This document shows positions 27,969 through 62,332 of a stretch of DNA of 64,000 bases, one piece after another. Numbering within the stretch: position 1 is the stretch's first letter; each line of letters opens with the position of its first letter. The position numbers were made by a program, and so were the translations under genes. The DNA is from Octopus sinensis (lineage: Eukaryota). The notes below the pieces were generated by a model. That model searched no databases, had not been told where the DNA came from, and was given only the letters and a program-made list of their open reading frames with translations. Location: positions 40,672,001 through 40,736,000 of the forward strand of contig NC_043012.1 in NCBI RefSeq assembly GCF_006345805.1. The letters run 5' to 3'.

Positions 27969-29759
27969 TTGTTAAACTGTAATTATGTTTGTGTCTGGCG
28001 TTGTGCTGAAACTGTTTTTCAACATTATGGAGTTGTCACTTAGTGAAGAGAACTCGCCAACTAATGCGTTGATGGATATGTCTGTGTTTGTAACAGGTGA
28101 AGAAGGAAGAATCCAAAAAGTAGCAACCCAGAAAATAAACTTTGCAGAAGCAGCCAGGAAGAAGGAAAGTGCAATTAATATTGAAATTGAGAATCTAAGT
28201 GCTACATGAACTGCGTTTTCAAAGTGTGTCACGAGACCAGACATGTTTTTTTCTTTATGGCAGATTGAAACATAAGGGAGGAATGCATACACCAGTCGAT
28301 TTCTCCCAGGACCCACAATATTTAGTGACCTGTGGAGGGCATATTCACATATTCCAGAGATAGAGGGATACAATTGTCGACAGACCGGTGAACCACAGCG
28401 TCAAGTTTGGTAACTCCATAGATAACACACATACCCAACAAATAGAAAGTACTTGGGTGTGTTTGAAACAGGCTAACAAGCAACGGTGGGGTACACACCG
28501 TTCTATGATTGACTCGTATCCTTGCAAATTCATGTGGTGGTGGTGCAGACACGAGAAAACTGACCTTTGGGAGAAATTGCTGGAAAGCACTGGAAACTTC
28601 CAAGAAAAGTGCATCAATAATTGTTTTTTGACACAAAGAGATAAACCAGTGTGTTTCCTCTGCTCAGAATATAAGGGTCTCACAGATTTTGTAAATGTTT
28701 GCACATTTTGGGTAATTTTAGCCAATCAATAACCAGACGTATTGGTGTCTGTCTCCATAGTAACAAGCCATATAGTCTCTTCAAACTAAGACAACCAAAT
28801 ATGAACCATTTCGTTGCACGTTAGTTGGATTATTCGGTTATTCTGCAAACGTTTTCTTTGGATTGCTATTGTTGTGAAAGTAAGCTGCTCTCTATTTTAT
28901 GTTGTTGATACGATCTGTTTGTTGCCTTTTGTAAAGCAAATTGTTATTAATTCCCCCCTGGAGGGGAATTATTATTGTTAAACTGTAATTATGTTTGTGT
29001 CTGGCTTTTGTGCTGAAACTGTTTTCAACATTATGGAGTTGTCACTTAGTGAAGAGAACTCGCCAACTAATGCGTTGATGGATATGCCTGTGTTTGTAAC
29101 AGTGGTGAAGAAGGAAGAATCCAAAAAGTAGCAACCAGAAGAAATTAAACTTTGCAGAAGCAGCCGGAAGAAGGAAAGTGCAATTAATATTGAAATTGAG
29201 AATCTAAGTGCTACATGAACTGCGTTTTCAAAGTGTGTCACGAGACCAGACATGTTTTTTCTTTATGGCAGATGATGAAACATAAGGGAGGAATGCATAC
29301 ACCAGTCGATTTCTCCCAGGAACCACAATATTTAGTGACCTGTGGAGGGCATATTCACATATTCAGACCGGTGAACCACAGCGTCAAGTTTGGTAACTCC
29401 ATAGATAACACACATACCCAACAAATAGAAAGTACTTGGGCCAGTGTTAAACGGGCAATAAACGAAGCTGCAAGGTCCATGGTTCACTCATATCTGAGAG
29501 TGTATGTGGTGCTTGAGATTGTAATTCGTATAAGAAAACCCTAGGGCAGGGCTTCTCAACAGAAGTGCAGGGGAAAATTTTTGTAATGAAAAGTCATTTT
29601 TCACCTCATTTCTGTTAATTTAATATGTTTTTCTTTATGGCAGATTGAAACATAAGGGAGGAGTGCATACACCAGTCGATTTCTCCCAGGACCCACAATA
29701 TTTAGTGACCTGTGGAGGGCATATTCACATATTCCAGAGATAGAGGGATACAATTTTCG
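27969..29759 (+). repeat. Merlin-transposase-derived complex tandem repeat, block 1
   Basis: Translates through frameshifts as PGxTIFSDLWRAYSHI...VNHSVKF...HTQQIESTW...RWGTHRSMIDSY..KFMW (IS1595/Merlin DDE C-terminal half); near-identical to blocks 2-6. Confidence 0.9.
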
Positions 29760-31389
29760 CAGCTGCATAGTGTTACTGTGACGTAGACAGCTATATTGTG
29801 ACGTACTTAACGTTCGTTTGAAAATTGTAAACAGTGTGGGTAACAAGTAAGCCTTTTAAGCTATAGCAAATTGTTAGATATCAAGATCTTTACTCAATAA
29901 ATGAAGCATTGTATATTTAGAATTTCAGTTTGTAACTTTCATTTACAAAATAAAATTTTGATATTTTCGCCAGACCTCTATATCTTACGAAACTTCAATA
30001 TGTTGGTAATGCACCGTTTGATATTGGTATACGATATCATTCACCCACACAACCTTCCTTCATGACATAGACAAAAAAAGCCAGGCTGAAACAGGCGGGT
30101 AAATGACATCGTCCCCTCATAACTGACACTGTATATCAAAGTTTTTATTTTGTTCTTTAAGAATTGTCTGGGAACATGACAGTTATTGGTAATTATGAAT
30201 ATATATGCAACACGAAATAACTAAACTAATGTGGATATTGTTTTATTTTCTTCGCCTGTATCCACATGTTCTTAATATTTTATACACGTGGACTCTTATG
30301 ATAAAAGGCAGATTTTCTCTGTCTGTTCCCATGTTTCTTTTTAATACAATTCTACAATATAGAATTTCTTCAATTGGGTCATGGCATGTAAAGTTTTTTC
30401 AATTTGACCCCCAATTAAGCAAAAATTCGAGAAAACTCAATATTTAACGATTTGCCTCTTTCATTTCAAGTGCTTCACTCCTTCCATTACCACCACAGTT
30501 TCTCCTACTTTCTCTTTGCAAGTGTGCAACAATTAAAGTGAAAGTATTTATATAACAGGGATGAGCCATTAATACTGGTCATCCTTTTTGCTAGAGGAAG
30601 ATCCGCTATGGTCTTATATGCTACACCACTGGTTTTCAATTCATATTAATCAAATTAATATTCAATTTTTCACCCATATTATGTGTGTGTGTATTAGCAA
30701 TTCGTATAAAATTGCATCAATGACTTGAACAAGTGGTTTCACATAAATGGGGATAAATTAAAAAGGTTTGTTTTTATTATTATTACTGATTGACTATTGT
30801 AATCACGCTTGTTGGTTCCTCGTCAGGGAAACGTTGTTGTGTTGCATTTGTTAAATAATTGTAAACCGTAACCCTCCCCCTTTCGGAGAAGGGGCTTTGG
30901 TTATTGTTTCAAAATTGAATCGTGTCCCTGTTTGGGGAAATTGACAATATTTTCACCGTCTTTACGGAAGCATTTTTGTTTAAATGCCTTCGATAGAAGA
31001 AAGTTCAAAAATGAATTTCGCTGCAGCCGTCCAATTCTATACAAGAGGGAGGACAAGATCCAATTGATCGAAATTGCAAGAGACGGGCCTACAATTCCAG
31101 TCTGTTATATATTTTAAGTATTGTTATCACTAGCGATATCAAGATATAACTTTGTATTTTATGTGTAGATGTATATATATATATAGATGTACATGTAATA
31201 TGTACACATATATATACACATATATACATGCATAATATATCTACCCATACACACACATGGGCAGGTGTGGCTGTGTGGTAACAAACTACGTTCCAAACAC
31301 ATGGTCCTGGGTTCAGTCCCACTGTGTGGCACAATCAGTGAGACATAGTTCTTCAAAGCCGCGACAGTGGTCTTCGGCGTATTAATGAG

Positions 31390-33724
31390 ACGCATCGGTC
31401 ATAATGACGCTCTGCAGTTTCCTTTTCTTTTTCCGTAAGGAGAAGACGGGTACCATTTCGGCATTCCTCACCACAAAGCAAACGAGCCCACTGCTGCAAC
31501 ATCTAAAACTGTTTCATGTATGGCTTTTTACTCATACCGCTTCATGACAAGGCATAATGATTTCAACCCCCTGCACAGATCACGGGAACTGAGTCACCAG
31601 TTTGCAGTTGACATGGCTGCAAAGATGGAGTCCGAGAGACTGTGCTTCATCAAATTGAATCAGAAGCAGCTGCGCTCAGACTCCTACATCCATTTGCGTG
31701 AAGGCATCAGGAATGACACAATATCGGCAAAATGTGCATTCTCCCCTCAACCTATACAGGGGGCCCACAGTACATGCACGAGCAAACACAAGACGTTATG
31801 ACTTACATTCGGCATTATGGGCGACCCGATTTATTCATTACCTTTACATGTAACCCAAAGTGGGTTGAGGTAACGCGAGAACTTCTCCCAGGGCAGCAGT
31901 ACTGTCATCGCCATGATATTATTGCAAGGGTTTTCAGGCAGAAACTGGCTAAGCTCATTCATTTAATAAAAAAAGGGCAGGCTTTTGGGCCTGTTAACTG
32001 CCACATGTGTGGCGGAGGGTGTTTCGTTAAAATCTCCTAAAAAAATCAGATCACTTTTCTACTACTATGGTGTGACTTGGCTAATCCCACCTCTTTATGG
32101 CTTACCTACAAAGATTATATGTCTGAAGATTTCCTGCGTCACGCTCAATCGCTACATCCATCAATGGAGGTCGGGAACACTGACCTCATTTACAACAGGG
32201 CGCTGCTTGAAATCGAAGATACTGTACTTGATATGGGCGGTAGTACCTTGCCGGTCTATGGCCTACCTTCAACAAACCGGAAGGCACAAACACTCTGTCT
32301 TCACATTTGCTGCGTGAGACATGTTTTAATGTTGACGAGCTTGCCGAGTACATAGCCGACAATGAGCCAAAGCTCCTTCCAGAACAGAAGCTTGCTTACA
32401 ACTCCGTTGTTAATTCAGTCCGGGCCAAAGCTGGGGGGATTTTTTTCCTGGACGCTCCTGGGGGCACTGGGAAAACTTTTGTCAACAAATTAATATTGGC
32501 TGAGATTAGGCGAACACAAGGCATTGCCCTAGCTGTGGCATCATCTGGAATTGCGGCTACTTTGTTGCCAGGCGGCAGGACAGCTCACTCCACTTTCAAG
32601 CTCCCGCTTGACTTAGCGAAGACTGAGACACCAACTTGCAAGATCAGTAACAGCTCCGATCAGGCAGAAGTCTTCAGACGATGCAAGCTTATTGTTTGGG
32701 ATGAATGCACGATGGCCCACAGAGGTGCTCTTGAGGCACTAGATAGATCACTCAGAGACATCACTCTTCAGCTCCCATGGGAGGCATAACACTTCTTCTT
32801 TCAGGGGACTTCCGACAAACACTTCCCATTATTCCCAAAGGGACTAGAGCTGATGCAGTAAGTGCGTGTCTTAAGTCATTCACATTGTGGCCACTGGTGA
32901 AGACTCTCAAACTTCACACCAATATGCATGCTCATATGCAATGTGATATCACATCAGCAGCATTTTCTCACACCCTCCTTGCACTTGGCGAAGGCAAAAT
33001 ACCAGGGGATGAAAATGGTAATATTGCCATCGATTCCATTTGTACCATTGTTAAAACGCCTTCTGATCTCAGAGATGCAGTGTTCCCAGATCTACAAGCT
33101 AATTATCAGAATATGGATTGGATTGGCCAAAGGGCTATTCTGGCCCCGAGGAATAAAACTTCACCATATTAATGATGAAATGCTAAAACTTATTCCTGGG
33201 GATGTCTATGTATAATAAGTCTATCGATACAACTCCTGAGCCAGAGGACGTCATCAATTATCCAATAGAGGTACTCAATTCCTTTGAGCCCCCCGGACTA
33301 CCACCACACATTCTCAAACTTAAAGCTGGTGCCCCTATAATGCTCATTAGAAATTTGGTTCCCCCAAAACAATGCAATGGCACACGTTTGATCGTTAAGT
33401 CCTTATCTCCCAATCTAATTGAGGCCACCATTATCACAGGGTGCGGTCGAGGCAACGTTGTGCTCATACCTAGGATGCATCTTTTCCCATCAGGAGCAGA
33501 CCTACCTTTCATATTTCGGAGGTCCCAGTTCCCAGTAAGGCCATGTTTCGCAATGTCAATTAACAAATCGCAGGGTCAAACACTGTCTGTGGTGGGAATA
33601 CATTTGGGAGAGCCATGTTTCTCTCATGGTCAGCTTTGTGTTGGCTGCTCGCGTGTCGGCAGCAACAGTGATGCTTTCGCATTCGTTCCACAACGAAAAA
33701 CATTGTGTACAAGGAGGTTTTATA
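31390..33724 (+). mobile_element. Helitron Rep fragment plus PIF1-like helicase (deleted, frameshifted)
   Basis: YIRHYGRPDLFITFTCNPKW (Rep motif I); FFLDAPGGTGKTF, ASSGIAATLLPGGRTAHS, VWDEC, LSGDFRQ, CNGTRL, QFPVRPCFAMSINKSQGQT, FSHGQL. Confidence 0.95.
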
Positions 33725-35000
33725 GGATTACTACGTTTCATCATTTTCGAACATGTTAGTATTTCACTTACATACGACTCTTTTATGATGGCATTTACAT
33801 TTTTAGGCATTTCATGACATTAATTCACACTTAACCAACACCTGTCCTTTGCTCACCTCTATTTCTATCCATTCATCATCAAACCACCAGCCTCATCTAT
33901 ATCCAACGTACATGACACATCTACCCCCTCACTGTTAAAGTTTACAGAAGCGACAACACGATCGCAACATACACTTTGGAAACTAAGCAACAGATCATTT
34001 TATACAACAACAAATTTAATCATAACGCCCATCAATGAAAACATCTCCACCACTGTGTTGTGATTCATCTATTCAGCACCACTACAGTCTTGCCGGTCTG
34101 ACATATGGTGAGTAGATGCTATTGTTCTATATTTTATAAATTACCCATATTTACTTATCCCTGCTTCATTCCCCTCTTGCCTACGAACGTTTTACATCGC
34201 CTTCCACGACTATCAAATTCTTACAATTATGAGAACAATAACATGGCTCTTTTCAAGGCAACCTTGCATTCAATTCTTACACCATTCTACGAGGGGGTAG
34301 GAACCCCTTTACACAGCTTTCTATACACTTACAAATACATTCATTCGCCGTAAACTTATATCAATATTTGCTACTCGTGCACATCCAAATCATTTGCTTT
34401 GTAAACAAACAGGATAATTGAGTGCACTGCACTAGCACCGTAATTATATTAACATTGGTTCATTATTCTTCTGGCATAGGCCAATGCCTGTTGCTGTAGA
34501 TTTCCAGCTCATAACTTGTACTCGTTTTATCGACCCACCTGTAACTGGCATATTTTGAACTTGATAAACATATATATATGTAAACCTGAAAACATCTCGA
34601 GTATGTTATATATTTGTAGGGAACGGACGTGAAACCCAAGGCAATCCCATAAATCGGCCTTATCTAACTTTAATATATACTGTTCTATAACTTAGAGTGG
34701 GCTTCTTTTTTCGGATTTATGTTTACGGACGATATATATATATATAAGGTGAAAGTAAAGAATACGTACACCTGGTGTTTCGGGTTAGGGATTAGGATTT
34801 TCGTTACGCTGAAAACAGGTGGTGGGATCTTTTCTAAAAGATCCATATAGGATCTTTTCGGTTGCACAATTGCAGTGCCTCCATTGACTCTTCTTGTGTA
34901 CTTTGCATTTGCATCACAAACTGTAATATCCTGCTTTCAAATGTATTACACACCTGTTGCATAATTCTTGTGTACTTTGCATTTGCATCACAAATTGTAA

Positions 35001-36613
35001 TACTTGGGCGTGTTTGAAACAGGCTAACAAGCATCGGTGGGGTACACACCGTTCTATGATTGACTCGTATCCTTGCAAATTCATGTGGCGGTGGTGCAGA
35101 CACGAGAAAACTGACCTTTGGGAGAATTTGCTGGAAAGCACTGGAAACTTCCAAGAAAACCAGTGTGTTTCCTCTGCTCAGAATATAAGGGTCTCACAGA
35201 TTTTGTAAATGTTTGCACATTTTGGGTAATTTTAGCCAATCAATAACCAGACGTATTGGTGTCTGTCTCCATAGTAACAAGCCATATAGTCTCTTCAAAC
35301 TAAGACAACCAAATATGAACCATTTCGTTGCACGTTAGTTGGATTATTCGGTTATTCTGCAAACGTTTCTTTGGATTGCTATTGTTGTGAAAGTAAGCTG
35401 CTCTATTTTATGTTGTTGATACGATCTGTTTGTTGCCTTTTGTAAAGCAAATTGTTATTAATTCCCCCCTGGAGGGGAATTATTATTGTTAAACTGTAAT
35501 TATGTTTGTGTCTGGCGTTGTGCTGAAACTGTTTTTCAACATTATGGAGTTGTCACTTAGTGAAGAAGAACTCGCCAACTAATGCGTTGATGGATATGTC
35601 TGTGTTTGTAACAGGTGAAGAAGGAAAAATCCAAAAAGTAGCAACCCAGAAATTAAACTTTGCAGAAGCAGCCGGAAGAAGGAAAGTGCATTAATATTGA
35701 AATTGAGAATCTAAGTGCTACATGACCTGCGTTTTCAAAGTGTGTCACGAGACCAGACATGTTTTTTCTTTATGGCAGATTGAAACATAAGGAGGAATGC
35801 ATACACCAGTCGATTTCTCCCAGGACCCACAATATTTAGTGACCTGTGGAGGGCATATTCACATATTCCAGACCGGTGAACCACAGCGTCAAGTTTGGTA
35901 ACTCCATAGATAACACACATACCCACAAATAGAAAGTACTTGGGCCAGTGTTAAACGGGCAATAAACGAAGCTGCAAGGTCCATGGTTCACTCATATCTG
36001 AGAGTGTATGTGGTGCTTGAGATTGTAATTCGTATAAGAAAACCCTAGGGCAGGGCTTCTCAACAGAAGTGCAGGGGAAAATTTTTGTAATGAAAAGTCA
36101 TTTTTCTCCTCATTTCTGTTAATTTAACATGTTTTTCTTTATGACAGATTGAAATATAAGGGAGGAGTGCATACACCAGTCGATTTCTCCCAGGACCCAC
36201 AATATTTAGTGACCTGTGGAGGGCATATTCACATATTCCAGAGACAGAGGGATACAATTTTCGACAGACTGGTGAACCACAGCGTCAAGTTTGGTAACTC
36301 CATTGATAACACACATACCCAACAAATAGAAAGTACTTGGGCGTGTTTGAAACAGGCTAACAAGCAACGGTGGGGTACACACCGTTCTATGATTGACTCG
36401 TATCCTTGCAAATTCATGTGGCGGTGGTGCAGACACGAGAATACTGACCTTTGGGAGAATTTGCTGGAAAGCACTGGAAACTTCCAAGAAAAGTGCATCA
36501 ATGATTGTTTTTTCACACAAAGAGATAAACCAGTGTGTTTCCTCTGCTCAGAATATAATGTAAAAAGGCCCTTCCATGGTAGGCTGTGTTAAGGGTCTCA
36601 CAGATTATGTAAA
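35001..36613 (+). repeat. Merlin-derived tandem repeat, block 2
   Basis: Starts abruptly at tacttgggcgtgtttgaaac; same sub-units as block 1; 31-nt insertion at 36559-36589. Confidence 0.9.
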
Positions 36614-36624
36614 AAACCAAAAGG

Positions 36625-38630
36625 AGAATGGGAGACACAAGAAATAGCCCAGAGAGGCACCTGGTTTTTGCTGCTCTGGTGGCAAAGTGGACCTGCCACC
36701 CCTATGGGAACCACCTTAACTGCTTAAGGATCTCGCTGCGGGTTTAACCCCTCCAAATCGTCACAATTCCTTGAAATCATTCAAAAATACAACAGCTCAT
36801 TCCAAATGACCTCTTTCGGGGCCAAAATTCCTCCTAGAGAAGGCTGGATGCCTACTTTCAAAGTGCAGAGACAGGTCTACCATCTCATTGGGTCACTTCT
36901 GCCAGACGAGATTCAGCAGTCTTCTTTCCTCCAAATCTACTTCATTGCCGACTACAACCAGCAGGTTGATGCACGCCTTGGAATAATACCGGATTACATG
37001 TTATGTTCTCCACAAAGACGTTCTTCTCCGTCTCCAAACCATGCTTCATGATATCAACAGCTACGTCTGCAGCTTCAGGTATGCCTTGGACAGTGCTCCG
37101 TCTCCAAACTTCACCATTGTCATTGATGCTGATAAACGACCCCACGGAGAGCCTGAACGCCTTTTCAACGCACCTGCGTGCAACGAAATTGCCGCAGTCA
37201 TGCACGGAGAGTAACACAACAGCCGTGACATAATCATCTCCTCCCGTGGTAACAGCCTACGTAGGATCAGCGAGACTCACAGATCTTATGACGCACTTCA
37301 GTATCCACTGCTTTTCCCTTATGGGGAAGACGGCTACCACTTCGGAATTCCTTTACGGCAGCCCTCCAATCAAACTACTGCGGCATCAAAGACGGTTCCA
37401 GCAGAGCGTTTTACTCATACCGGTTCATGGTCAGGGAGGGTCAACTTCTTGCCCCGTTGTCGTCAGCTATTCAACCAGTTCGCCGTCGACATGGCCGCCA
37501 AAATGGAATCGGAAAGGCTGCTATACATTAAACTTAATCAGACCAAACTTCACTCCAACTCCTACATTCATCTCCGTAACGGCTTGCAACAAGAAAATGA
37601 CCCTCGCAACATCGCCATGCATTCTACCCTCCACCTTCACGGGAGGACCGTGATATATGCGTGAAAGGACCCAAGACACTTAGACCTACGTGCGCATTTA
37701 CGGCTGGCCGGACCTCTTTATCACCTACACGTGCAATCCCAACTGCGACGAAATCACTCGCAAACTCCTCCCGGGTCAGTCTCACACCCATCGACACGAC
37801 ATCGTTGCTAGGGTTTTCCGTCTGAATTTGGGCAAAATGATGGATTTGATAGTTACGGGTCAGATTTTCAGGCATGTAAGGTGCCAAATGCTTACGGTCA
37901 AGTGGCAAAAGAGGGACTTGCCACATGCTCACATCTTAATTTGGCTAACTAATAAAATCAAGACTAATGACATTGACAAATTCATTTCCGCCCAGATTCC
38001 TGACCCCGATGAGGACCCCGAATTGTACGAAATTGTCCGCACTACCATAGTACACGGGCCCTGTGGATCAAATTACGCCAACACACCATGCTGCAAAAAC
38101 GGATTAGCCTGCTCAAAGGGATTCCCTAAACGGTTCACTTTGGAGACTCAAACAGGCGGCGATGGGTATCCGCTGTACAAACGAAGGAGTCCAGCCAATG
38201 GAGGCCGCACGATTACGGTTGGGTGACATCATGTGGACAACAGCTACATCGTCCCCTACTGTCCTCCTCTGTCGAAGATATTCAAAGTCCACGTCAACGT
38301 TGAGTTCTGCAGCTCCATCAGGTCAATACAATATGTCTGCAAATATATCAACAAGGGCAGCGATGCTGCCATGTTTAGCATCCAGAGGACCACCAGTCAC
38401 GATGAAGTGTCCAACTACTTGGCAGGCCGGTACCTCAGCAGCAACGAAGCGTTTTGGCACATTTACAGCTTCCCACTTCATCAGAGACACCCAGCTGTGG
38501 TGCAGCTTGCTGTACACTTGGAAAATGGACAGCGGATTTACTTCACAGAACAAACTGCTGCACAGGTAGCCACCAACCCTAAAGACACAACGTTGGCCGG
38601 TTTCTTCAAATTATGCCAACATGACTTCGC
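36625..38630 (+). mobile_element. Second Helitron, Rep (HUH) domain fragment
   Basis: CCSGGKVDLPP, FQMTSFGA, PTFKVQRQVYHLIGSL, PDLFITYTCNP, WQKRDLPHAHILIW, HGPCG, YVCKYINKGSD, LAVHLENGQR. Confidence 0.95.
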
Positions 38631-49850: not shown

Positions 49851-49859
49851 CTGAGATAC

Positions 49860-51500: not shown

Positions 51501-52075
51501 CTTCAATATCTACATGGATGAAACTGGCATAACAACTGTGCAGTGCCCCGATAGAATTATTGCCAGAAAAGGAACAAAGCAAGTGGGAAAAATGACAAGT
51601 GCGGAGAGGGGAACTCTAGTCACATGGGCATGCTGTGTAAATGCTGGTGGAAACAGCATACCACCGTTTTTTGTTTTTCTCCGGAAGAACTTAGGGCCAC
51701 ATTTCCTGAACAATGGTCCATGAGGCAGCGATGGAGGTGCTAATCCATCTGGTTGGATGTGTGAGGAGCAGTTTGTGAAATTCCTTCAACACTTTGTGAA
51801 GAATGGGAAATGTTCGAAGCAGTCACGATTCCCAGCTTAGTATCGAGGGGCTGACTTATGCATCAGACAATGGCAGCACCATGCTTTATTTCCCACCTCA
51901 CTGCACACACAGGTTACAGCCATTGGACAAAGCGGTCTATGGACCACTGAAAAGTACACAAACGCTGCCATTGATGACGGGCATATCAACCATCCTGGCC
52001 AGACCATGACCATTTATGACATTCCGTGTATTGTCAAAAACTGCATGACCATTGACTGCAACTCCGACGAACATT
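51501..52075 (+). mobile_element. pogo/Fot1-like DDE_1 transposase fragment
   Basis: NIYMDETG...SAERGTLVTWACCVNAGGNSIPPFFVF, NPSGWM, FPPHCTHRLQPLDKAVYGPLK. Confidence 0.88.
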
Positions 52076-52310
52076 CTTAGTTGTTTCCGCCAACATGGAG
52101 TTGTTCCTGCATTTGTGAATTGCCCAACATGTAATTCCCCTTGCGTTCTTTGAAATGGAACTAATATGTTTTGATGTAGGAAGATGGTTCGGCGTCGGAG
52201 ACAAAGGAAAACAGAATGCGGGTTTTCAGTGTCTATCTTCAAGAACACCTTTGTGGAGCGAAGCCGTTTACCCCTGTGGAAAGTTCTTTTGAGGTGGGCC
52301 ATGTTGGTGT
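52076..52310 (+). mobile_element. Merlin/IS1595-type transposase N-terminal (zinc ribbon) fragment
   Basis: FRQHGVVPAFVNCPTCNSPC...ECGFSVSIFKNTFVERSRLPLWKVL. Confidence 0.55.
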
Positions 52311-52424
52311 CTTAGATTTACAAGAAAAAACCCGGCCGTCAGGGCACACACGACATTACCTCCCTCCCGACAACGAGGGAAAACTTGTTAACTTTCGCAC
52401 ATTCACTCAAAGATAGCGGAGAAT

Positions 52425-53018
52425 ATAAATATGGATGAAGTACCTTTGACATTTGACCTGCCTCTCACTTGGACAGTTAATAAAAAGGTCACTCGTCCCT
52501 CACACTGAAAACAAGTGGCCATGAGAGAACGCATTTTACCTGTGTTCTGAGCTGCACAGCATCTGGACTAAAGATTCCACCGATGGGGACCTTTAAGCGG
52601 CTGACAATGCCAAAGGAAAAATTCCCAAAAGAAATCGTGGTGAAAGTCAATAAGAAAGGTTGGATGATGGAGAGCCTAATAACGATTGGCTCAGAGAGTG
52701 CCACGCCAAGCGACCTGGGGGGAGTTTTTCACACAAAAACAAGCATTGCTCGTTATGGACAGCATGAGGGCACATATAACAGATTCAGTGAAAGCTGCCA
52801 TCAAGAGTACCAACTCAATTCCAGCTGTGATTCCTGGGGGCACCACTAAGTATTCGGAGCCACTGGACATCAGCGTGGACCGGACATTTAAAGTGGCTCT
52901 GCACCGTGAGTGAGAGCGACAACGAAGTGGCTGAAGTGAGTGACGAGATTCGGACACTGAAGAAGAGGACTTTGATGGTTTCAGTGCACTGGAAGAAGAT
53001 GAAGAAGGTGATCAATGA
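52425..53018 (+). mobile_element. pogo (POGK-like) transposase fragment
   Basis: NMDEVPLTFD, KTSGHERTHFTCVLSCTASGLKIPPM, KGWM, LLVMDSMRAH, VIPGGTTKYSEPLDISV, acidic tail SDTEEEDFDGF. Confidence 0.9.
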
Positions 53019-53039
53019 CTTTTGACCTGGTAGGCTGCA

Positions 53040-53080
<41 letters not shown>

Positions 53081-53537
53081 ATGAAAGAAGGTTTGAAAAT
53101 GCAATTTTAAAAGATGTTTATTCACTTGACCAGTTTCATTTTTTTTTTACGATAAAATGGTGAAACAGGTCAGTTCATCCCAAATTCTTTGTAAACTAAA
53201 TATATCTCCTTCATTGTACATATATATATACTATCAAAATATGACCTTTTTGGACTTATAATTTTCTGTGTATATATATATATAGATACTTCCAAACAAA
53301 CATGATCTCTAATGAAATCCCAATATTCTTTATGAACTTAATATTTTTTTCTGTAATCTGTTCTTAACATATTCTTATCAAAGAATGTATATATGTATTT
53401 TAATACTTTTGTGACAACTAGTACCTAACACAACAAAGCTTTTACATGTTACTTTTGACAATCCTTTTCTAAAGAAAGGTGAAACCGGTCAAGTGAATGA
53501 ACATCTTTTAAAATTGCATTTTCAAACCTTCTTTCAT
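53081..53537. repeat. 58-bp inverted repeat pair (probable inverted Penelope pLTR ends)
   Basis: 53081-53138 pairs with 53480-53537 (tgaaaccggtcaagtgaatgaacatc...ttctttcat); abuts the Penelope ORF. Confidence 0.75.
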
Positions 53538-53544
53538 ATATAAT

Positions 53545-54538
53545 TCCACTTGTGCAAGAGTGAAGATTCTCTTTTCGATGTCCCGATGGGGGCATACGAC
53601 GGGGCTGAGATATGTATGCTCATAGGAGCCTATATTCTACATGATGACGGCCTTATAGCCACCCATAATTTAAACGGCCATGAATCAGATAAACTTAGGA
53701 AGGACCTTATTGCTTTCTTCCAAAGGATGGGCTTATGGGTTACGTTAGATACTAACCTGAAAAGTGTAGATTTTTTAGATGTAAATTTGAATTCAAGGTC
53801 GGATAAATTTAAACCTTACCGTAAGCCTAATGACAAGCTATCGTATATTAGCAAAGAATCAAATCAACCGCCAGTTATTCTTAGGAACTTAGTTAGCAAT
53901 GTAATATACGAATATCGTCAATTTCTTCTGATGAGGCAGCATTCCATAAAGCTGCACCTTCTTAGGAATAGTGGATTCTCTGAGAAGATCCAGTATAACC
54001 AACTTAATGCTAATAGTAATGCTACACGTAGAACTAGGACCAGGAAAGTTTTGTGGTTCAACCCAGCTTTCAATTTGGCCGTAAAAACAAACATAGGTAG
54101 GGAATTCTTGAAATTAGTCCCTAGGCATTTTCAAAAGGATCATAAATTTCATAGAAGAACCCTTAAGATCAGCTATTCTTGTTGCAGGAACCTTGCCTCT
54201 TACGTTAACCAGCACAACAGGAAATTAAATGATAATAAGCATAGTGCCGATCCTCTTAAAAAATGTAATTGCAAAGATGGATCCTCCTGTCCATTGGAAG
54301 GGAAATGTTTGGAAAAAGGAATTGTAAATAGAGCCAAGGTGCAAATAGAAGGCTCACCTGAATATAAGATTTATACAGGGGCTACTAAAAATTCTTTTAA
54401 AACTCGATTTTATTTGCACAAAAATTCCTTTCTATACCCAGAAAATAAGACAAAGACCAACCTGGCGAAATATGTCTGGGAACTAAGAGAAAAAGAAGTC
54501 CGACTTTTCAACGTGTCATGGAACATTCTAGATAGAGC
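53545..54538 (+). mobile_element. Penelope-like retroelement RT to GIY-YIG fragment
   Basis: FDVPMGAYDGAEIC, DDGL, VDFLDV, PYRKPN, VLWFNPAF, CNCKDGSSCPLEGKCL, KIYTGATKNSFKTRFYLHK; runs directly into repeat block 4. Confidence 0.92.
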
Positions 54539-54820
54539 GGCAGGGTTTCTCAACAGAAGTGCAGGGGGAAAATTTTTGTAATGAAAAGTCATTTTTCACC
54601 TCATTTCTGTTAATTTAATATGTTTTTCTTTATGGCAGATTGAAACATAAGGGAGGAGTGCATACACCAGTCGATTTCTCCCAGGAACCACAATATTTAG
54701 TGACCTGTGGAGGGCATATTCACATATTCCAGAGATAGAGGGATACAATTTTCGACAGACCGGTGAACCACAGCGTCAAGTTTGGTAACTCCATAGATAA
54801 CACATACCCAACAAATAGAA
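54539..54820 (+). repeat. Merlin-derived tandem repeat, block 4 (short)
   Basis: ggcagggtttctcaacagaagtgcagg...cccaacaaatagaa. Confidence 0.9.
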
Positions 54821-56032
54821 GGTATAATTTTATACTGAACTCATATGTTTTGTTTATCGCTCGCCTATGACCGTTATTTGAAAGGACCAATCAAACAAAT
54901 CCATTTCTAAAGGTGTGTCACTTATGCTAGTCTTGATCGAATTGTCATCCCGGTTCTATTTTAACAAAACTGTCCGACAAACGGGAATGGGAAACTCCGA
55001 GCAACAGCTTTTGTTAAATTTCTGCTGCTTTTAAATAAAAATATATACACACACACCAGTCATTAGGAGGAATGCTGTTCATGCACTGTTCAGTAAAAAA
55101 GCATAAGCAACGTAATTTGTGTGTTACTGATACGCACATATATTTAAGAGTAGGCGTGTTACAGGAATGGGACCGACCCCGCCGTGTCTGCTCTCGCTCA
55201 GGTTTCCTCTACTGCATCTTCCTTATCACATAAGGATATCTTGGAGGAACTGCAGCATATCAAACCAGGAACAACAATAAACCTGTGGTGACAAATCAAA
55301 CACCAAATGAGACACACACCATGGCATGTAAACCTCACCAGGCATCTGTGAAATAAAAAACAGCCCACTAGGTTTTAAAAAATGTGTATAAAACGAATAT
55401 GAAAAGACAAATTTCCACAAACAAATGGATGGATAAGGAGAGGACTTTCGGAAAATTCACAAGATTCAATTTTTCCCTCATAACTTTCAGGAAAATGGAT
55501 ATATATTGATAAAATGTTATATAGAAATACCATTTAGGTAGCACAAATTATGGTCATACAGAAATCTCTGGCAACTGTCAGTACACGAAATGGAATACAA
55601 TGTTGAAAACATAATCCCAAGGTTTATCCTTTTTAAATTCCAACAGTATGTAACATGAAATTTCTTTGATATTGTAGTGACGCTATTTTTGGAAGTTTTC
55701 AGGACACATGCACAGAGTTGGATTACTTCCGGTAGGCCGCCAGAAGTTCCCTCATACGCAGAGAACTGCAAACTGAAAGTGTCTATCGGTCATTCATTAC
55801 ATCTGGGGTGTGAAAATAATGGACCCACTGCAAAATTTCAAGCATGTGGACATATTGTATGGAATGTTCCAAAATCCAAATTAGACAATACACTTAAATA
55901 TCAAAAACCTGTAACAAGGAAAAGTGGATTTGTTAAGAAGACAACTTGGATATTTTGAGCTGTTAAAAGTTTAATAACATAACAAAAAAAAAAAAAAACT
56001 TTTTTTCTTTTGAGAAAATATTCATACATATA

Positions 56033-57945
56033 ATGGAGCAAAATATAAAAGAATTTGAGACGTCATATTTCGATAGAAATTACACACAAGCTTCTGTGAA
56101 TGTATTGAATTGTCCTCCGTGGACTGGAGACACCGTAATTCGGTTGGCACAACTGGAGGCAAGCTTTAAAGCTAATAAAATTACAAATGAAGAGCAGAAA
56201 TACAATATAATGCTCAGCAATTTACCTCCACCTCTAAGTAATGAAATTAGAGATTTGCTACTAAACCCAATAGAACCAGTTTCTTATTCTTCTTCAATTA
56301 AAGAGGAAATATTGAAACGAACATCAAATTCTAAACAAAAAGAGTTTGCGAAGTTATTCAACAATGAAGAGTTGGGTAATAAAAAACCCACACAACTTCT
56401 GCGAAGAATGAATGAACTTCTGGGAAATCAGCAGATAGAAGAATCTTATCTCAAAGAAGTGTTTTTCTATAAATTGCCATATAAAACTCAAACTTTGCTT
56501 TCGGCCGTTAAAAACCAAAACTCCATTCAACAGTTGGCAGATTTAGCAGACAGTATTCTGGAATTATCGTCCAAAGAAACTGTAAATGCAATTCCATCTA
56601 TTTCGAATGAAATACAGGAATTAAAAGATTGTTACCAAAAACAATTTGAATTATAAACAAAAAAAATAGAGAGTTTGCAACTCGAAAGAAATAGTCGCTC
56701 GGCTCAACAAAAAAATGCAAGATGGCGCAGGAGATCAAGGAGCCCTAGTTTAAAAAGAAACGCCATATGTTGGTACCATGCTAAATTTGGAGACAAATCA
56801 TTCAAATGTATTAAACCCTGTGCATTTGATTTCCTTAATAAAAAAAGGAAAATTCGGAAAACTTCTGAACCACCGATTGGATGCGACGAAATCTGTGGAT
56901 AACATCATAAAAAGTCACGTATTTTTCATCTATGATTTAAACTCAAAAGAAAGGTTTTTAGTTGATACAGGAGCAGCTTGTTCAATTTGGCCAGTAAAGC
57001 TTTTAAAACAAAAAACCAAACCTGTTTATTTGACTCTTCAAGCAGTTATTCTATCTGAAATCCAAACATTTGGAGAGATTAGCTTAACTCTAGATATAAA
57101 CTTAAGAAGAGAGTATAAATGGATCTTCATAGTAGCAGATTTACCATATCCAATATTAGGAGCGGATTTTTTGGCACACTATCATTTAATGGTAGATGTT
57201 AAAAATCAAAAATTGATAGACACAGGAACTTCATTAAAAATTCAAGGAATGAGATGCAGAAAAGCCACACTCAGTCCATTGCATTTCATAGCGTCCTCAG
57301 AAAATAGATATCACAGGATTTTGAAGAATTATCCAAATATCACGAAACAGCTCTAAATACCAAGTGTGTGCATTCGGTACAGCATCACATCGTCACACAA
57401 GGGCCACCAAGTTTTTCTAAGCTGAGAAGATTATCTCCGGAAAAATTGAAGGTAGCTACGGCAGACTTTCGGCATATGATGGATCTAGGTATAATCCGTC
57501 CTTCCAGTAGTAGCTGGTCAACACCATTAGTTATGGTAAAGAAAAATCTTATAGACTGGCGACCTTGTGGAGACTTCAGACAACTTAATGCAAAAACAAA
57601 AGCAGACAAATATCCAACACCACACATTATGGACTTTGCAACTTCTTTGAGTGGTTGTGCTATTTTTTCAAAAATTGATTTAGTCGGAGCATACAATCAA
57701 ATTCCTGTTGCAGAAAATGATATACCGAAGACAGCGATTACCACTGCATTTGGTTTATTTGAATTTCTTCGCATGCCTTTTGGATTGAGGAATGCAGCAA
57801 ACACTTTTCAAAGATTTATGGACAAAGTAACAAGAGATTTACCTTTCGTATTTGCTTATATAGATGATATTCTCATTGCTAGTCCATCAGAAGAAGCACA
57901 CGAAGAACATTTGAAAACAATTTTCGAAAGATTGACAAATTTTGA
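56033..57945 (+). mobile_element. Ty3/Gypsy gag-protease-RT fragment (second family), no LTRs
   Basis: gag PPWTGDTVIRLAQLEASF, ELGNKKPTQLLRRM, CWYHAKFGDKSFKCIKPC; protease FLVDTGA; RT WRPCGDFRQLN, RMPFGLRNA, FAYIDDIL. Confidence 0.95.
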
Positions 57946-58049
57946 AAATTCTTTGATTTCCTGAAACACTTTCTTATCACTATGGCATAGCAACGCACAT
58001 CTACAAGAAAGGATATATCCCGCACTACCAAGGCTAAACAATTTACGCA

Positions 58050-58530
58050 TGGGCATACTCATGGAATTAAACACAGTGACGATGATGGAATTCTTCACCA
58101 TATGGGAGTGAGACATGTTGTCTGAGGGAAAGAGAAATGGCAATTTTGAGAAGAACCAACAGAGCAATGTAATCCTGTAATGTGCAGATGTACCTTTCAT
58201 TGCACAATACAGTATCCGATGGAAAAACGTGCAGGTGCACTGTTTTCAATCGATTTTGTGGCATTAGGCAAGATTCGTTTTTCTCCGGTGCATGCCTATA
58301 GAATGCAAACAGTGGTGTGATGAGTGAAGTTGGAATCGCATCAGAAGCAACTGTTAACTGGTACAATTACATCTGCAATGTTCGTGCCGTGTGGAGCTTT
58401 GGCCACCCTGTGCAACTTGGGAGATATTATAGAAATTGACGAATCCAAGTTCATGCACAGGAAATATCATCACAGTTGTTATCAACGAAGGCCTTGGGTT
58501 CTTTGAATGGTTGAACAGGACAACCTCAGA
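58050..58530 (+). mobile_element. Merlin/IS1595-type transposase N-terminal half including the first catalytic Asp
   Basis: GIRQDSFFSG, EVGIASEATVNWYNYI, IIEIDESKFMHRKYH...PWVL*MVE. Confidence 0.8.
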
Positions 58531-58570
58531 TGGGTTTTCAATTCAAATAGATAAAGAAGAAAAGTTCCTG

Positions 58571-60077
58571 ACTCATATCACCGTCTACTTTCAATCTTGA
58601 GAGTGTATGTGGTGCAGGAGATTGTAATTCGTATAAGAAAACCCCTAGGGCAGGGCTTCTCAACAGAAGTGCAGGGCAAAATTTTTGTAATGAAAAGTCA
58701 TTTTTCTCCTCATTTCTGTTAATTTAACATGTTTTTCTATATGACAGATTGAAACATAAGGGAGGAGTGCATACACCAGTCGATTTCTCCCAGGAACCAC
58801 AATATTTAGTGACCTGTGGAGGGCATATTCACATATTCCAGAGATAGAGGGATACAATTTTCGACAGACCGGTGAACCACAGCGTCAAGTTTGGTAACTC
58901 CATAGATAACACACATACCCAACAAATAGAAAGTACTTGGGTGTGTTTGACACAGGCTAACAAGCAACGGTGGGGTACACACCGTTCTATGATTGACTCG
59001 TATCCTTGCAAATTCATGTGGTGGTGGTGCAGACACGAGAAAACTGACCTTTGGGAGAAATTGCTGGAAAGCACTGGAAACTTCCAAGAAAAGTGCATCA
59101 ATGATTGTTTTTTGACACAAAGAGATAAACCAGTGTGTTTCCTCTGCTCAGAATATAAGGGTCTCACAGATTTTGTAAATGTTTGCACATTTTGGGTAAT
59201 TTTAGCCAATCAATAAGCAGACGTATTGGTGTCTGTCTCCATAGTAACAAGCCATATAGTCTCTTCAAACTAAGACAACCAAATATGAACCATTTCGTTG
59301 CACGTTAGTTGGATTATTCGGTTATTCTGCAAACGTTTCTTTGGATTGCTATTGTTGTGAAAGTAAGCTGCTCTATTTTATGTTGTTGATACGATCTGTT
59401 TGTTGCCTTTTGTAAAGCAAATTGTTATTAATTCCCCCTTGGAGGGGAATTATTATTGTTAAACTGTAATTATGTTTGTGTCTGGCTTTGTGCTGAAACT
59501 GTTTTTCAACATTATGGAGTTGTCACTTAGTGAAGAGAACTCGCCAACTAATGCGTTGATGGATATGCCTGTGTTTGTAACAGGTGAAGAAGGAAAAATC
59601 CAAAAAGTAGCAACCCAGAAATTAAACTTTGCAGAAGCAGCCGAGAAGAAGGAAAGTACAATTGATATTGAAATTGAGAATCTAAGTGCTACATGAACTG
59701 CGTTTTCAAAGTGTGTCACGAGACCAGACATGTTTTTTCTTTATGGCAGATTGAAACATAAGGGAGGAATGCATACACCAGTCGATTTCTCCCAGGAACC
59801 ACAATATTTAGTGACCTGTGGAGGGCATATTCACATATTCCAGAGATAGAGGGATACAATTTTTGACAGACCGGTGAACCACAGCGTCAAGTTTGGTAAC
59901 TCCATTGATAACACACATACCCAACAAATAGAAAGTACTTGGGCGTGTTTGAAACAGGCTAACAACCAACGGTGGGGTACACACCGTTCTATGATTGACT
60001 CGTATCCTTGCAAATTCATGTTACGGTGGTGCAGACACGAGAAAACTGACCTTTGGGAGAAATTGCTGGAAAGCACT
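58571..60077 (+). repeat. Merlin-derived tandem repeat, block 5
   Basis: actcatatc[18 nt]tgagagtgtatgtggtgcagg...gctggaaagcact. Confidence 0.9.
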
Positions 60078-60629
60078 TTGTGACTCGGCTCAACCCATAC
60101 TTTCTCAGATTTTGTCTGCTGTTATCTACACCTACAAAGATTGCAGCTGTTTTTGTTCCTGCTTTTAGCTATCAGAATTATCCTACAACCCCTGGCAGCT
60201 ATAGAAGATTGTTCTTGTCAACCATGCCTGGCTCAGCTACCTACAAATCGAAACTGAGATCTGCGAAAAGGGCTTGTTCTGCTGATCCTATTTTGGAAAA
60301 TTCAGTTAATAAGGCTATCAGTGATATCAAGCTTTCACATGAAGACCCTGAAATCAAGATTTTTCAAGAAGATGGTCTTACTAACAAGCATCTCAACGAG
60401 CAGTTGCCATTGCTTAAACAAGAGTCGAGCACCTTAAGTCTGTTGTTGCTGAATTACAGAATAAACAAACTGAATCCCATTCAAAGTCTCCTACTGACGC
60501 AGAGCCACCCTTGATTTCTTCCCAAAAGACTTCCAAACTGAAGTGATTAAAATCGAAGCGGTCAAAGAAGGCGAAAGAACCAGCGGTCGTTTCCATCTGC
60601 CATTTCGGTCCCAGGGGTTCCCCAAGCTG
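60078..60629 (+). other. Unidentified captured ORF fragment (possibly a LINE 5' end / ORF1)
   Basis: MPGSATYKSKLRSAKRACSADPILENSVNKAISDIK...; no diagnostic motif. Confidence 0.3.
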
Positions 60630-60675
60630 AATTAAACTTTGCAGAAGCAGCCGGCAAGAAGTACAATTAATATTG
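60630..60675 (+). repeat. 46-bp sliver of the scaffold repeat
   Basis: aattaaactttgcagaagcagccggcaagaagtacaattaatattg matches 43524-43574 with a small deletion. Confidence 0.8.
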
Positions 60676-60915
60676 GGACCTTTTCTAACAGATGGACAGA
60701 ATTTTCTAGTTAACTAAATAATTTGAAACTTCATATACTGGTAGAATGTGTCAAAAGAAAACATTAATTTCAACTAGTTTTTTTGAGAAAATTTTATTTT
60801 GTAAGTTTAAACGTAGTTTAAATCTGCGAATTTTAACCAATCGTATTGTCTGTTTTGATCTGAAATCATTAGCTGCATAGTGTTACTGTGACGTAGACAG
60901 CTATTTTGTGACGTA

Positions 60916-62332
60916 CTGCAAACATTTCTTTGGATTGCTATATCTGGGAGTGTATGTGGTGCAGGAGATTGTAATTCGTATAAGAAAATCCTAGGGCAGG
61001 GCTTCTCAACAGAAGTGCAGGGGGAAAATTTTTGTAATGAAAAGTCATTTTTCTCCTCATTTCTGTTAATTTAACATGTTTTTCTTTATGACAGATTGAA
61101 ACATAAGGGAGGAGTGTATACACCAGTCGATTTCTCCCAGGAACCACAATATTTAGTGACCTGTGGAGGGCATATTCACATATTCCAGAGATAGAGGGAT
61201 ACAATTGTCGACAGACCGGTGAACCACAGCGTCAAGTTTGGTAACTCCATAGATAACACACATACCCAACAAATAGAAAGTACTTGGGCGTGTTTGAAAC
61301 AGGCTAACAAGCAACGGTGGGGTACACACCGTTCTATGATTGACTCGTATCCTTGCAAATTCATGTGGCGGTGGTGCAGACACGAGAAAACTGACCTTTC
61401 GGAGAAATTGCTGGAAAGCACTGGAAACTTCCAAGAAAACCAGTGTGTTTCCTCTGCTCAGAATATAAGGGTCTCACAAATTTTGTAAATGTTTGCACAT
61501 ATTGGGTAATTTTAGCCAATCAATAACCAGACGTATTGGTGTCTGTCTCCATAGTAACAAGCCATATAGTCTCTTCAAACTAAGACAACCAAATATGAAC
61601 CATTTCGTTGCACGTTAGTTGGATTATTCGGTTATTCTGCAAACGTTTCTTTGGATTGCTATTGTTGTGAAAGTAAGCTGCTCTATTTTATGTTGTTGAT
61701 ACGATCTGTTTGTTGCCTTTTGTAAAGCAAATTGTTATTAATTCCCCCTGGAGGGGAATTATTATTGTTAAACTGTAATTATGTTTGTGTCTGGCTTTGT
61801 GCTGAAACTGTTTTTCAACATTATGGAGTTGTCACTTAGTGAAGAGAACTCGCCAACTAATGCGTTGATGGATATGTCTGTGTTTGTAACAGGTGAAGAA
61901 GGAAGAATCCAAAAAGTAGCAACCCAGAAATTAAACTTTGCAGAAGCAGCCGAGAAGAAGCAAAGTGCAATTAATATTGAAATTGAGAATCTAAGTGCTA
62001 CATGAACTGCGTTTTCAAAGTGTGTCACGAGACCAGACATGTTTTTTTCTTTATGGCAGATTGAAACATAAGGGAGGAATGCATACACCAGTCGATTTCT
62101 CCCAGGACCCACAATATTTAGTGACCTGTGGAGGGCATATTCACATATTCCAGAGATAGAGGGATACAATTTTGGACAGACCGGTGAACCACAGCGTCAA
62201 GTTTGGTAACTCCATAGATAACACACATACCCAACAAATAGAAAGTACTTGGGTGTGTTTGAAACAGGCTAACAAGCAACTGTGGGGTACACACCGTTCT
62301 ATGATTGACTCGTATCCTTGCAAATTCATGTG
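60916..62332 (+). repeat. Merlin-derived tandem repeat, block 6
   Basis: ctgcaaacatttctttggattgcta...ccttgcaaattcatgtg. Confidence 0.9.

What the first reader, a model, noticed from the sequence alone, without database searches (positions are those of the whole stretch)
27969..62332. The scaffold repeat is built from the catalytic C-terminal half of a Merlin/IS1595 transposase
Seen: a core of about 190 bp occurs 13 times and translates (with frameshifts) as ILPGTTIFSDLWRAYSHI...VNHSVKF...HTQQIESTW. It continues either as ..LKQANKQRWGTHRSMIDSY..KFMW or as a second paralogous variant ..ASVKRAIN..SMVHSYL..ECMWC. These alternate with two non-transposase modules in a higher-order unit of about 1.37 kb. 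Known: SDxWRAY, VNH, HTQxIESxW and YLxEFMWR are diagnostic of the ISXO2/IS1595 (Merlin) DDE domain. No TIRs or intact ORF were seen, yet the copies are highly homogeneous while the cargo is degenerate. Inference: a transposase remnant co-opted as a structural or regulatory repeat under concerted evolution.
Basis: partly seen in the sequence, partly recalled or inferred. Interest (0 to 1): 0.7.

Follow-up and report, generated by a model that had tools for sequence, protein, structure and literature searches.

The report
Dead Merlin copies inside transposon trap
A broken piece of a Merlin jumping gene is copied 13 times inside a 50-kb pile of transposon and virus scraps that nearly all face against the neighbouring DONSON gene, a layout that likely makes transposon-silencing small RNAs (piRNAs), so the repeat is likely a locally duplicated passenger rather than a purpose-built scaffold.

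Summary
The 13 cores are real and are Merlin/IS1595 transposase, lacking the first catalytic Asp. They sit in six ragged blocks (8.4 kb). The 1.37-kb unit is a chimera of two dispersed Merlin families; 82% of it, including most of the 'non-transposase' modules, matches Merlin-type elements. All cores share the same lesions and differ by 2.3%, so a dead piece was amplified recently. One block lies inside a Penelope element, with a 4-bp microhomology, so that block was copied into the cargo. The surroundings are a 50-kb, microsatellite-poor field of transposon and parvovirus-like fragments, 18 of 20 on one strand. It starts 2.5 kb past the stop codon of a DONSON gene on the other strand. Four of the five other virus-fragment loci in this genome show the same polarity and local duplications; one starts 3 kb behind DNA polymerase eta. 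Best reading: a read-through, uni-strand piRNA cluster with a duplicated Merlin passenger. piRNAs and strand were not testable. The scan noted such loci before in other cephalopod and urchin genomes.

The parts
27969..29759 (+). Repeat block 1: partial module M1, core, Merlin-A C-terminal tail, M1, variant core, M2, truncated core
28225..28600 (+). Type example of the core plus tail: family-B-derived 5' part (to about 28310) fused to family-A transposase; carries the second Asp and the Glu motifs, lacks the first Asp
   Evidence: 114 of 118 identical to L016 before 28310; afterwards 84-100% to L001 per 30-bp window up to 28580 (72% in the last window); HMM 57.5 bits
28689..28800 (+). Module M1, first part: subterminal (long-TIR) sequence of Merlin family B
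   Evidence: 615 candidates; 31 of 40 listed rows hit this piece elsewhere; both ends of L033; upstream of decayed Merlin frames in L034, L037, L038
28800..29249 (+). Module M1, rest: shared with one family-B derivative at C16:15.1 Mb (L016, about 10% diverged); includes a 134-bp piece of another repeat (28853-28986); runs back into family-B transposase near 29200
29250..29627 (+). Variant core (26-27 bp deletion), family-B-like C-terminus (66% to L036) and module M2; the last ~85 bp have no match outside the window
   Evidence: (PF12762 E=6.5e-4, below cut-off)
29760..29852 (+). Merlin-A 5' non-coding fragment directly after block 1
34990..36613 (+). Repeat block 2 (tail, M1, variant core, M2, core, tail)
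42468..44269 (+). Repeat block 3 (1.3 long units); right end joins a 5'-truncated LINE with a 2-bp overlap
54539..54824 (+). Repeat block 4, inside a Penelope, replacing 0.4-1.2 kb of it; 4-bp microhomology at the left junction
58598..60077 (+). Repeat block 5 (short-unit type); left junction bridged by a contig of an independent run
60675..60915 (+). Merlin-A 5' end with GG-starting terminal motif, 95% to dispersed copy L002
60916..62332 (+). Repeat block 6 (short-unit type); shares an internal junction with block 3
27025..27583 (+). Leftmost cargo: Crypton-like fragment (label recalled, no Pfam hit)
   Evidence: related copies in two sister loci
31439..33756 (+). Helitron A, Rep/Pif1 fragments
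36728..38853 (+). Helitron B, Rep fragments (65% to A)
39385..40500 (+). Gypsy-type RT/RNase H fragment
40784..42448 (+). Parvovirus-like NS1 endogenous viral element, broken
   Evidence: Parvo_NS1 E=3e-11, PPV_E1_C E=1e-11
44268..48868 (+). 5'-truncated LINE (EN, RT, zf-RVT), natural 3' end, internal 127-bp x4 duplication
48870..50000 (-). LINE 5' part on the minus strand; one of two exceptions to the polarity
   Evidence: family label recalled
51463..53055 (+). pogo-type DDE_1 fragments and a Merlin N-terminal piece; 52383-53055 is duplicated (99%) from 63988 onward, past the window end
53556..55047 (+). Penelope-like element interrupted by block 4 (label recalled, no Pfam hit)
55967..57961 (+). 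Gypsy gag-protease-RT fragment
58168..58538 (+). Fragment of a third Merlin family (family of L024-L028)
62333..62707 (+). Second parvovirus-like NS1 fragment (69-80% to the first)
62966..64000 (+). CR1-type LINE ORF1 end and endonuclease start
   Evidence: weak, E=0.069; label recalled
27025..64000 (.). The polarised field as far as the window shows it. It runs on 13 kb past the window end (L017, L018: pogo copy, three Penelope-like elements, piggyBac and Merlin on +, one Gypsy on -) and ends 2.5 kb from the stop codon of a minus-strand DONSON homolog (last coding exon L018:5624-5974), the likely read-through source
   Evidence: DONSON (E=1.6e-5; second exon E=6e-4)

Best explanation
The repeat is a dead, chimeric Merlin transposase fragment copied 13 times inside a 50-kb field of same-strand transposon and virus scraps, which is likely a uni-strand piRNA cluster transcribed by read-through from the neighbouring DONSON gene. 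Shown: two Merlin families recombined inside their homologous transposase cores; the product carried its lesions before it was amplified; blocks of 0.3-1.8 kb have non-homologous ends with 1-4 bp overlaps; block 4 sits inside a Penelope. Inferred: unequal exchange made the 1.37-kb and 1.0-kb units, and break repair with template switching or microhomology joining scattered pieces among the cargo. Also inferred: RNA polymerase runs past the DONSON poly(A) site along the minus strand, so nearly every fragment, the Merlin blocks included, is read antisense and would be cut into primary piRNAs against the very abundant Merlin families. The repeat is then a duplicated entry in the archive, not its frame.
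For: Merlin identity. Chimera switch near 28310. An 11-bp deletion, a 2-bp deletion and a 1-bp insertion against L002 in 12 or more of 13 cores, plus 29 fixed substitutions. Copies of 95% or more occur only in this window. Block 4 inside Penelope. Polarity 23+/2- intervals, 18+/2- after collapsing duplicates, p=4e-4; none of the minus-strand window ORFs scanned hit a Pfam family at E<=1e-3. Microsatellites 4.7 bp/kb in the field, against 120 to the left and 74 to the right. DONSON stop 2.5 kb from the first element, opposite strand. Sister loci found by the NS1 piece: C12 28-/3+, C14 13-/3+, C27 11+/1-, C10 15-/4+, C5 3-/2+. They carry their own local duplications, Merlin and non-Merlin. The C12 field starts 3 kb behind a DNA polymerase eta gene facing the predicted way. 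Small runs guessed to be RNA cover 25-29 of 30 bins in two stretches 25 kb apart, and one 2765-nt contig bridges Gypsy, Merlin-C and block 5. Precedent in mosquito, slug, mammals and fly.
Against: No small RNA, strand or 5' U signature was seen. The RNA label of the runs is a guess. The intended silent control (23.2-26 kb) was covered as well, so transcription specific to the field is not shown. No host gene was recognised upstream of the C14 and C10 fields; the C27 gene is only a weak augmin-7 match (E=0.41; two other exons gave nothing relevant). C5 shows no clear polarity. Poly(A)-signal depletion on the minus strand is weak (27 against 35.6 +/- 4.8), and two such signals lie between DONSON and the field. 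The tblastn library came largely from this field, which inflates the density contrast with the flanks. Merlin blocks also bracket NS1 pieces at C27 and C14, which leaves room for a special role of Merlin.
Confidence: 0.65

Rival explanations
1. Neutral transposon nest: a rearrangement-prone graveyard whose polarity comes from selection against sense insertions behind DONSON, with no piRNA output. The Merlin blocks are an incipient TE-derived satellite.
For: All junction and duplication evidence fits without piRNAs; tandem repeats born from internal parts of DNA transposons are known (PMC12628747).
Against: It does not explain why 5 of the 6 NS1-bearing loci are dense, many-family, polarised and microsatellite-poor, nor the pile-up of coding fragments right behind a gene end in two cases.
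Confidence: 0.2
2. The Merlin block is a functional element of the cluster: a homology landing pad through which foreign fragments enter, or a dose amplifier kept by selection because Merlin is highly active.
For: Cargo lies between direct repeats; copies look mosaic (15 of 21 pairs); different Merlin blocks are duplicated around NS1 pieces at C27 (816 bp, 96%) and C14; the genome holds at least 150 Merlin loci, some identical with 308-aa frames.
Against: Ragged ends, no one-repeat-per-cargo rule, block 4 entered an older element, and pogo/Helitron pieces are duplicated the same way at C12 (95-98%). No gradient of similarity with position (rho -0.10, p 0.42, 12 of 13 cores).
Confidence: 0.1
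3. One reading: a transposase remnant co-opted as a structural or regulatory scaffold, kept uniform by concerted evolution while the cargo decays.
For: Merlin origin; 2.3% divergence; four-gamete failures.
Against: Cargo is about as young as the repeat; lesions predate amplification; only 8.4 kb in six ragged blocks, with no close copy found elsewhere.
Confidence: 0.04
4. The repeated blocks are an assembly artefact or independent MITE insertions.
For: Independent runs disagree with the assembly at a few 1-2 bp indels, so part of the copy-to-copy variation may be polishing noise.
Against: Copies differ in structure and junctions; an independent contig bridges the block 5 junction; no TIR or TSD at any of 6 block ends.
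Confidence: 0.02

Closest known systems
Mosquito core piRNA clusters made by read-through (10.1101/2022.08.22.504762; 12 passages read)
   Same: Unidirectional, start directly after an upstream gene, hold endogenous viral elements in antisense.
   Different: Those were defined by small RNA and trap non-retroviral EVEs; here the viral pieces are parvovirus-like DNA-virus fragments, the cargo is mostly DNA transposons, Helitrons, LINEs and Penelopes, and no RNA product is shown.
piC-DoG clusters of mouse, human and hamster, and uni-strand clusters of the slug Arion vulgaris (PMC11615739; passages read)
   Same: Dense antisense transposon fragments immediately downstream of a gene; in the slug, minus-strand piRNAs over plus-strand fragments.
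   Different: Read-through was shown there for mammals only; no repeated internal block appears in the passages read.
Drosophila flamenco and its R1 islands (PMC10495008; PMC10643416; passages read)
   Same: One transposon family locally tandem-duplicated into islands about 3.7% diverged inside a polarised cluster; strand bias used to predict clusters.
   Different: flamenco has its own promoter and is Gypsy-biased; R1 islands are far larger (about 99 kb) and often in sense; here the amplified piece is a DNA-transposon chimera in the predicted antisense orientation.
Merlin/IS1595 superfamily (PMC8101967; 12 passages read; Pfam PF12762)
   Same: Second and third DDE blocks, 85-95% identity to dispersed Merlin copies, GG-starting terminal motif nearby.
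   Different: The blocks are not elements: first Asp, open frame, paired TIRs and TSD are missing.
Satellite DNA derived from transposon segments (PMC12628747; passages read)
   Same: Tandemisation of an internal transposon segment with microhomology-type junctions.
   Different: At most 1.3 units per block, six blocks, one locus: not a satellite array.

Membership tests
Merlin/IS1595 transposon | DDE_Tnp_IS1595 domain homology | tested here: met
   PF12762 20.2 bits on a native frame (below cut-off 27); 13 of 13 cores 16-62 bits on a local Merlin HMM, shuffles at most 4.1; 3 of 3 parent frames at or above cut-off
Merlin/IS1595 transposon | Complete DDE triad in an open frame | tested here: not met
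   First-Asp motif in 0 of 13 cores; shared frameshifts
Merlin/IS1595 transposon | Paired TIRs beginning with GG | tested here: not met
   Longest inverted match between block ends 0-9 bp; only unpaired 5' motifs at 34824, 34850, 60675
Merlin/IS1595 transposon | 8-9 bp target-site duplication | tested here: not met
   Longest direct match in block flanks 0-6 bp
Read-through uni-strand piRNA cluster | Dense fragments of many transposon families | tested here: met
   25 intervals of nine groups in 50 kb; none in 67 kb to the left (library bias noted; Pfam found no transposon family in L043-L046)
Read-through uni-strand piRNA cluster | Fragments antisense to the upstream gene | tested here: met
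   18 of 20 independent elements on +, DONSON on -
Read-through uni-strand piRNA cluster | Starts at the 3' end of a gene | tested here: met
   2.5 kb from the DONSON stop codon; the poly(A) site itself is not mapped
Read-through uni-strand piRNA cluster | Endogenous viral pieces in antisense | tested here: met
   Two NS1-like pieces on +; NS1 follows the majority strand in all 5 other loci
Read-through uni-strand piRNA cluster | One long single-stranded transcript continuous with the gene | tested here: inconclusive
   Contigs of runs guessed to be RNA tile 23-28 kb and 52-58.6 kb, but give no strand, and the control part was covered too
Read-through uni-strand piRNA cluster | 24-32 nt PIWI-bound RNAs with 5' U bias and phasing | not testable with these tools
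   Only assembled contigs were served
Read-through uni-strand piRNA cluster | piRNA output depends on the upstream promoter | not testable with these tools
   Needs knock-down or promoter edit
Satellite DNA under concerted evolution | Long head-to-tail arrays | tested here: not met
   Six blocks of 0.3-1.8 kb, 8.4 kb in all
Satellite DNA under concerted evolution | Sequence exchange among copies | tested here: inconclusive
   15 of 21 site pairs incompatible; polishing artefact not excluded

The most novel reading that the evidence does not exclude
In this cephalopod-type genome, piRNA archives sit behind DNA-replication and repair genes (DONSON, polymerase eta) and grow by copying their own entries: a dead Merlin chimera serves as a recombination landing pad and dose amplifier that brackets newly captured transposon and parvovirus fragments, a loose eukaryotic counterpart of a repeat-spacer memory array.
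Probability: 0.1. Interest if true: 0.8.

Novelty: new member of a known kind. Interest (0 to 1): 0.42.

Why it matters
If the reading holds, this gives named, testable piRNA source loci in a cephalopod-type genome: five polarised fields, two directly behind identified genes. No description of cephalopod piRNA clusters turned up in my paper searches (listings). It would extend read-through piRNA biogenesis and antisense trapping of viral DNA to this group, and show DNA-virus fragments as markers for such loci. The Merlin blocks record how an archive reshapes itself by local copying. The repeat alone is ordinary: a dead transposon piece duplicated nearby.

Tried and rejected
Block 3 as an insertion into the viral fragment with a 6-bp duplication: rejected, the right flank is a LINE. 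Core start as a splice acceptor: rejected, it is family-B transposase sequence. Cargo inserted into one continuous array in register: rejected, block ends do not continue each other in unit coordinates. CRISPR-like one repeat per cargo: rejected. Blocks as MITEs: no TIR or TSD. Similarity gradient with position: none (12 of 13 cores). No RNA holder listed on record; this says nothing on expression. The silent control failed because it was covered. Contig depth was not used as copy number or expression level. Poly(A)-signal and splice-donor asymmetry: weak or none. TIR/TSD search in 21 Merlin loci paired ends in only two (L005, L014), with one possible 9-bp TSD. Upstream genes for C14 and C10 not found among 30 frames scanned, picked by eye from 124 listed candidates plus a few longer frames; Atlas search for the C27 exon was uninformative. 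Earlier-finding look-ups by place, by Merlin words and by sequence returned nothing. No fold or complex prediction was run. No supplements were read; the tables of PMC8101967 may list Merlin families of this lineage.
Full report
Setting. The window is G000:C16:40672001-40736000 of a 2.72-Gb animal genome. Earlier notes on this genome call it an octopus; I did not test that. The left 26 kb is rich in microsatellites, the rest is almost free of them. Positions above 64000 below count on past the window end into L017 and L018.

Observation. Self-comparison gives six blocks: 27969-29759, 34990-36613, 42468-44269, 54539-54824, 58598-60077 and 60916-62332, 8.4 kb in all. They hold exactly 13 cores. 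The long unit is 1371 bp. Blocks 1, 5 and 6 also hold a unit of about 1.0 kb that lacks the variant core and module M2, as expected from crossing-over between two cores. The variant continuation occurs in 3 of 13 cores. Block ends fall at different unit positions and show no TIR pair or TSD. Cores differ by 2.3% on average, M1 copies by 0.4-2.9%. Matches of 95% or more lie only in the window. None was seen in 40 kb to the left or 80 kb to the right.

Merlin identity. One native frame hits PF12762 at 20.2 bits, below the cut-off. Against an HMM built from other Merlin families of this genome, all 13 cores score 16-62 bits; 65 shuffles reach at most 4.1 (the pieces were chosen with a family-A frame as guide). 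The first catalytic Asp motif is absent in all 13. The genome has at least 150 loci above the cut-off, from 690 candidates. The nearest family (A) is about 85% identical, and 3 of 3 of its frames tested reach the cut-off.

The unit is a chimera. Up to about 28310 the core is 114 of 118 identical to L016, a derivative of an older family (B). After that it is 84-100% identical to family-A copy L001 per 30-bp window up to 28580 (72% in the last window), and 57-76% to L016. Module M1 opens with a subterminal piece of family B that hits 31 of 40 listed places elsewhere. That piece lies at both ends of L033 and upstream of decayed Merlin frames in L034, L037 and L038. The rest of M1 is shared over its length only with L016. 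The variant C-terminus is 66% like family-B copy L036. In all, 1130 of 1371 bp match A, B or L016, and 713 bp match dispersed A or B alone. A family-A 5' end with the GG-starting motif lies at 60675. So the modules are mostly Merlin too.

Why the copies are alike. Against L002, 12 or more of the 13 cores share an 11-bp deletion, a 2-bp deletion and a 1-bp insertion, and 29 substitutions are fixed. The piece was dead before it spread. The cargo is not older in any striking way. The LINE is 93-94% identical to its listed full-length copies, and two of those are 91.6% to each other. The Penelope is up to 96% identical to a family copy. Fifteen of 21 informative site pairs fail the four-gamete test, which suggests exchange among copies. 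Polishing noise is possible, since independent runs disagree with the assembly at some indels. Similarity does not follow position (12 of 13 cores).

How the blocks got there. Block 4 lies inside a Penelope: family copies match up to 54542 and again from 54848, with 0.4-1.2 kb missing, and the left junction has a 4-bp overlap. Block 3 meets a 5'-truncated LINE with a 2-bp overlap, and blocks 3 and 6 share an internal junction. A pogo piece is duplicated at 99% without any block. Several cargo elements follow each other with no block between. This fits copying during break repair (inferred), not a repeat-per-spacer frame. A 2765-nt contig from an independent run bridges Gypsy, Merlin-C and block 5 with five differences, so that junction is real.

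The field. From 27.1 to 77.0 kb lie Crypton-like, Helitron, Gypsy, parvovirus-like NS1, LINE, pogo, Penelope-like, piggyBac and Merlin fragments (the Crypton, Penelope and CR1 labels are recalled). Twenty-three intervals are on + and two on -. Collapsing repeated blocks and the pogo copy leaves 18 against 2, p=4e-4. The 67 kb to the left had no hit and the right flank had 3+/3-, although the library favours the field. Microsatellites cover 4.7 bp/kb in the field, against 120 and 74 in the flanks. Two minus-strand exons match DONSON (E=1.6e-5 and 6e-4); its stop codon, near 79,625, lies 2.5 kb from the first element. A transcript running on from DONSON would read nearly everything antisense.

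Sister loci. The NS1 piece matches five other places. Counts over all DNA fetched: C12 28-/3+, C14 13-/3+, C27 11+/1-, C10 15-/4+, C5 3-/2+, with NS1 on the majority strand each time (duplicates not collapsed). They hold their own local duplications at 88-99%: Merlin blocks at C14 and C27, pogo/Helitron blocks at C12. The C12 field starts 3 kb behind the stop of a plus-strand DNA polymerase eta gene. C27 has only a weak augmin-7 match (two searches gave nothing relevant). No gene was recognised for C14 and C10.

RNA. Runs guessed to be RNA or of unstated kind cover 28 and 27 of 30 bins at 52-58.6 kb, and 26, 25 and 29 of 30 at 23.2-28.2 kb. They were picked for holding 53-58.6 kb, not the second stretch, which hints at one long unit. 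But the label is a guess, contigs give no strand, and the part meant as a silent control was covered. This is weak support. Poly(A) signals are only slightly depleted on the minus strand.

Comparison. Mosquito core clusters arise by read-through and hold viral pieces in antisense (10.1101/2022.08.22.504762, passages). Mammalian piC-DoGs and slug uni-strand clusters have the same layout (PMC11615739, passages; PMC12506671, passages). flamenco of the simulans clade holds tandem-duplicated R1 islands 3.7% diverged (PMC10495008, passages), and strand bias has been used to predict such clusters (PMC10643416, passages). Snail clusters are enriched for young DNA transposons (PMC6128900, passages). 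Merlin features follow PMC8101967 (passages). Transposon-derived tandem repeats are reviewed in PMC12628747 (passages). The listings showed no title on cephalopod piRNA clusters or on a Merlin-derived repeat; no supplements were read. I had the piRNA reading before consulting earlier notes. One search then showed that the scan has reported similar loci in other cephalopod and urchin genomes, and pointed me to the mosquito and slug papers.

Verdict. The blocks are Merlin-derived but are not Merlin elements. They work most likely as a repeated antisense entry in a read-through piRNA cluster (0.65). A neutral nest (0.2) and a functional landing pad or dose amplifier (0.1) remain open. New member of a known kind; interest 0.42.

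Noticed in passing
G000:C12:57.46-57.55 Mb (L085-L089, L067-L072): About 85-kb polarised field (28-/3+ in the 120 kb fetched) starting 3 kb behind a DNA polymerase eta gene; holds duplicated pogo/Helitron blocks, a 107-bp tandem array and parvovirus-like non-structural and capsid-like frames.
   Followed up: partly
G000:C14:52.35-52.37 Mb; C27:15.93-15.94 Mb; C10:97.27-97.31 Mb: Three more polarised, microsatellite-poor fields with NS1-like pieces. At C14 and C27, duplicated Merlin blocks flank the NS1 pieces. C27 may lie behind an augmin-7 gene (weak match).
   Followed up: partly
L016, G000:C16:15.108 Mb: The only other long copy found of module M1 plus the core 5' part (about 10% diverged); its neighbourhood is also mildly polarised (6+/2-).
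   Followed up: partly
G000 genome-wide: At least 150 Merlin loci above the Pfam cut-off, with three identical 308-aa frames on three contigs, so Merlin looks recently active.
   Followed up: partly
window 27826-27968: Near-perfect long hairpin (non-autonomous element end) directly left of block 1.
   Followed up: no
window 27192, 27215: Three independent runs each carry one extra base here, so some frameshifts in the cargo are probably assembly errors.
   Followed up: no
window 24975 / 26550: One contig of run X1 joins these places in opposite orientation, a possible inversion allele at the left edge of the field.
   Followed up: no
window 12949-13991: 467-bp tandem duplication (97%) in the left flank.
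   Followed up: no
window 34824-35002: Two Merlin-type terminal motifs (one in a short hairpin), then a piece 73% like a tandem repeat that lies next to Merlin-A copy L002.
   Followed up: no
window 60078-60514: Unassigned plus-strand open frame of about 145 codons between blocks 5 and 6, with no Pfam hit.
   Followed up: no
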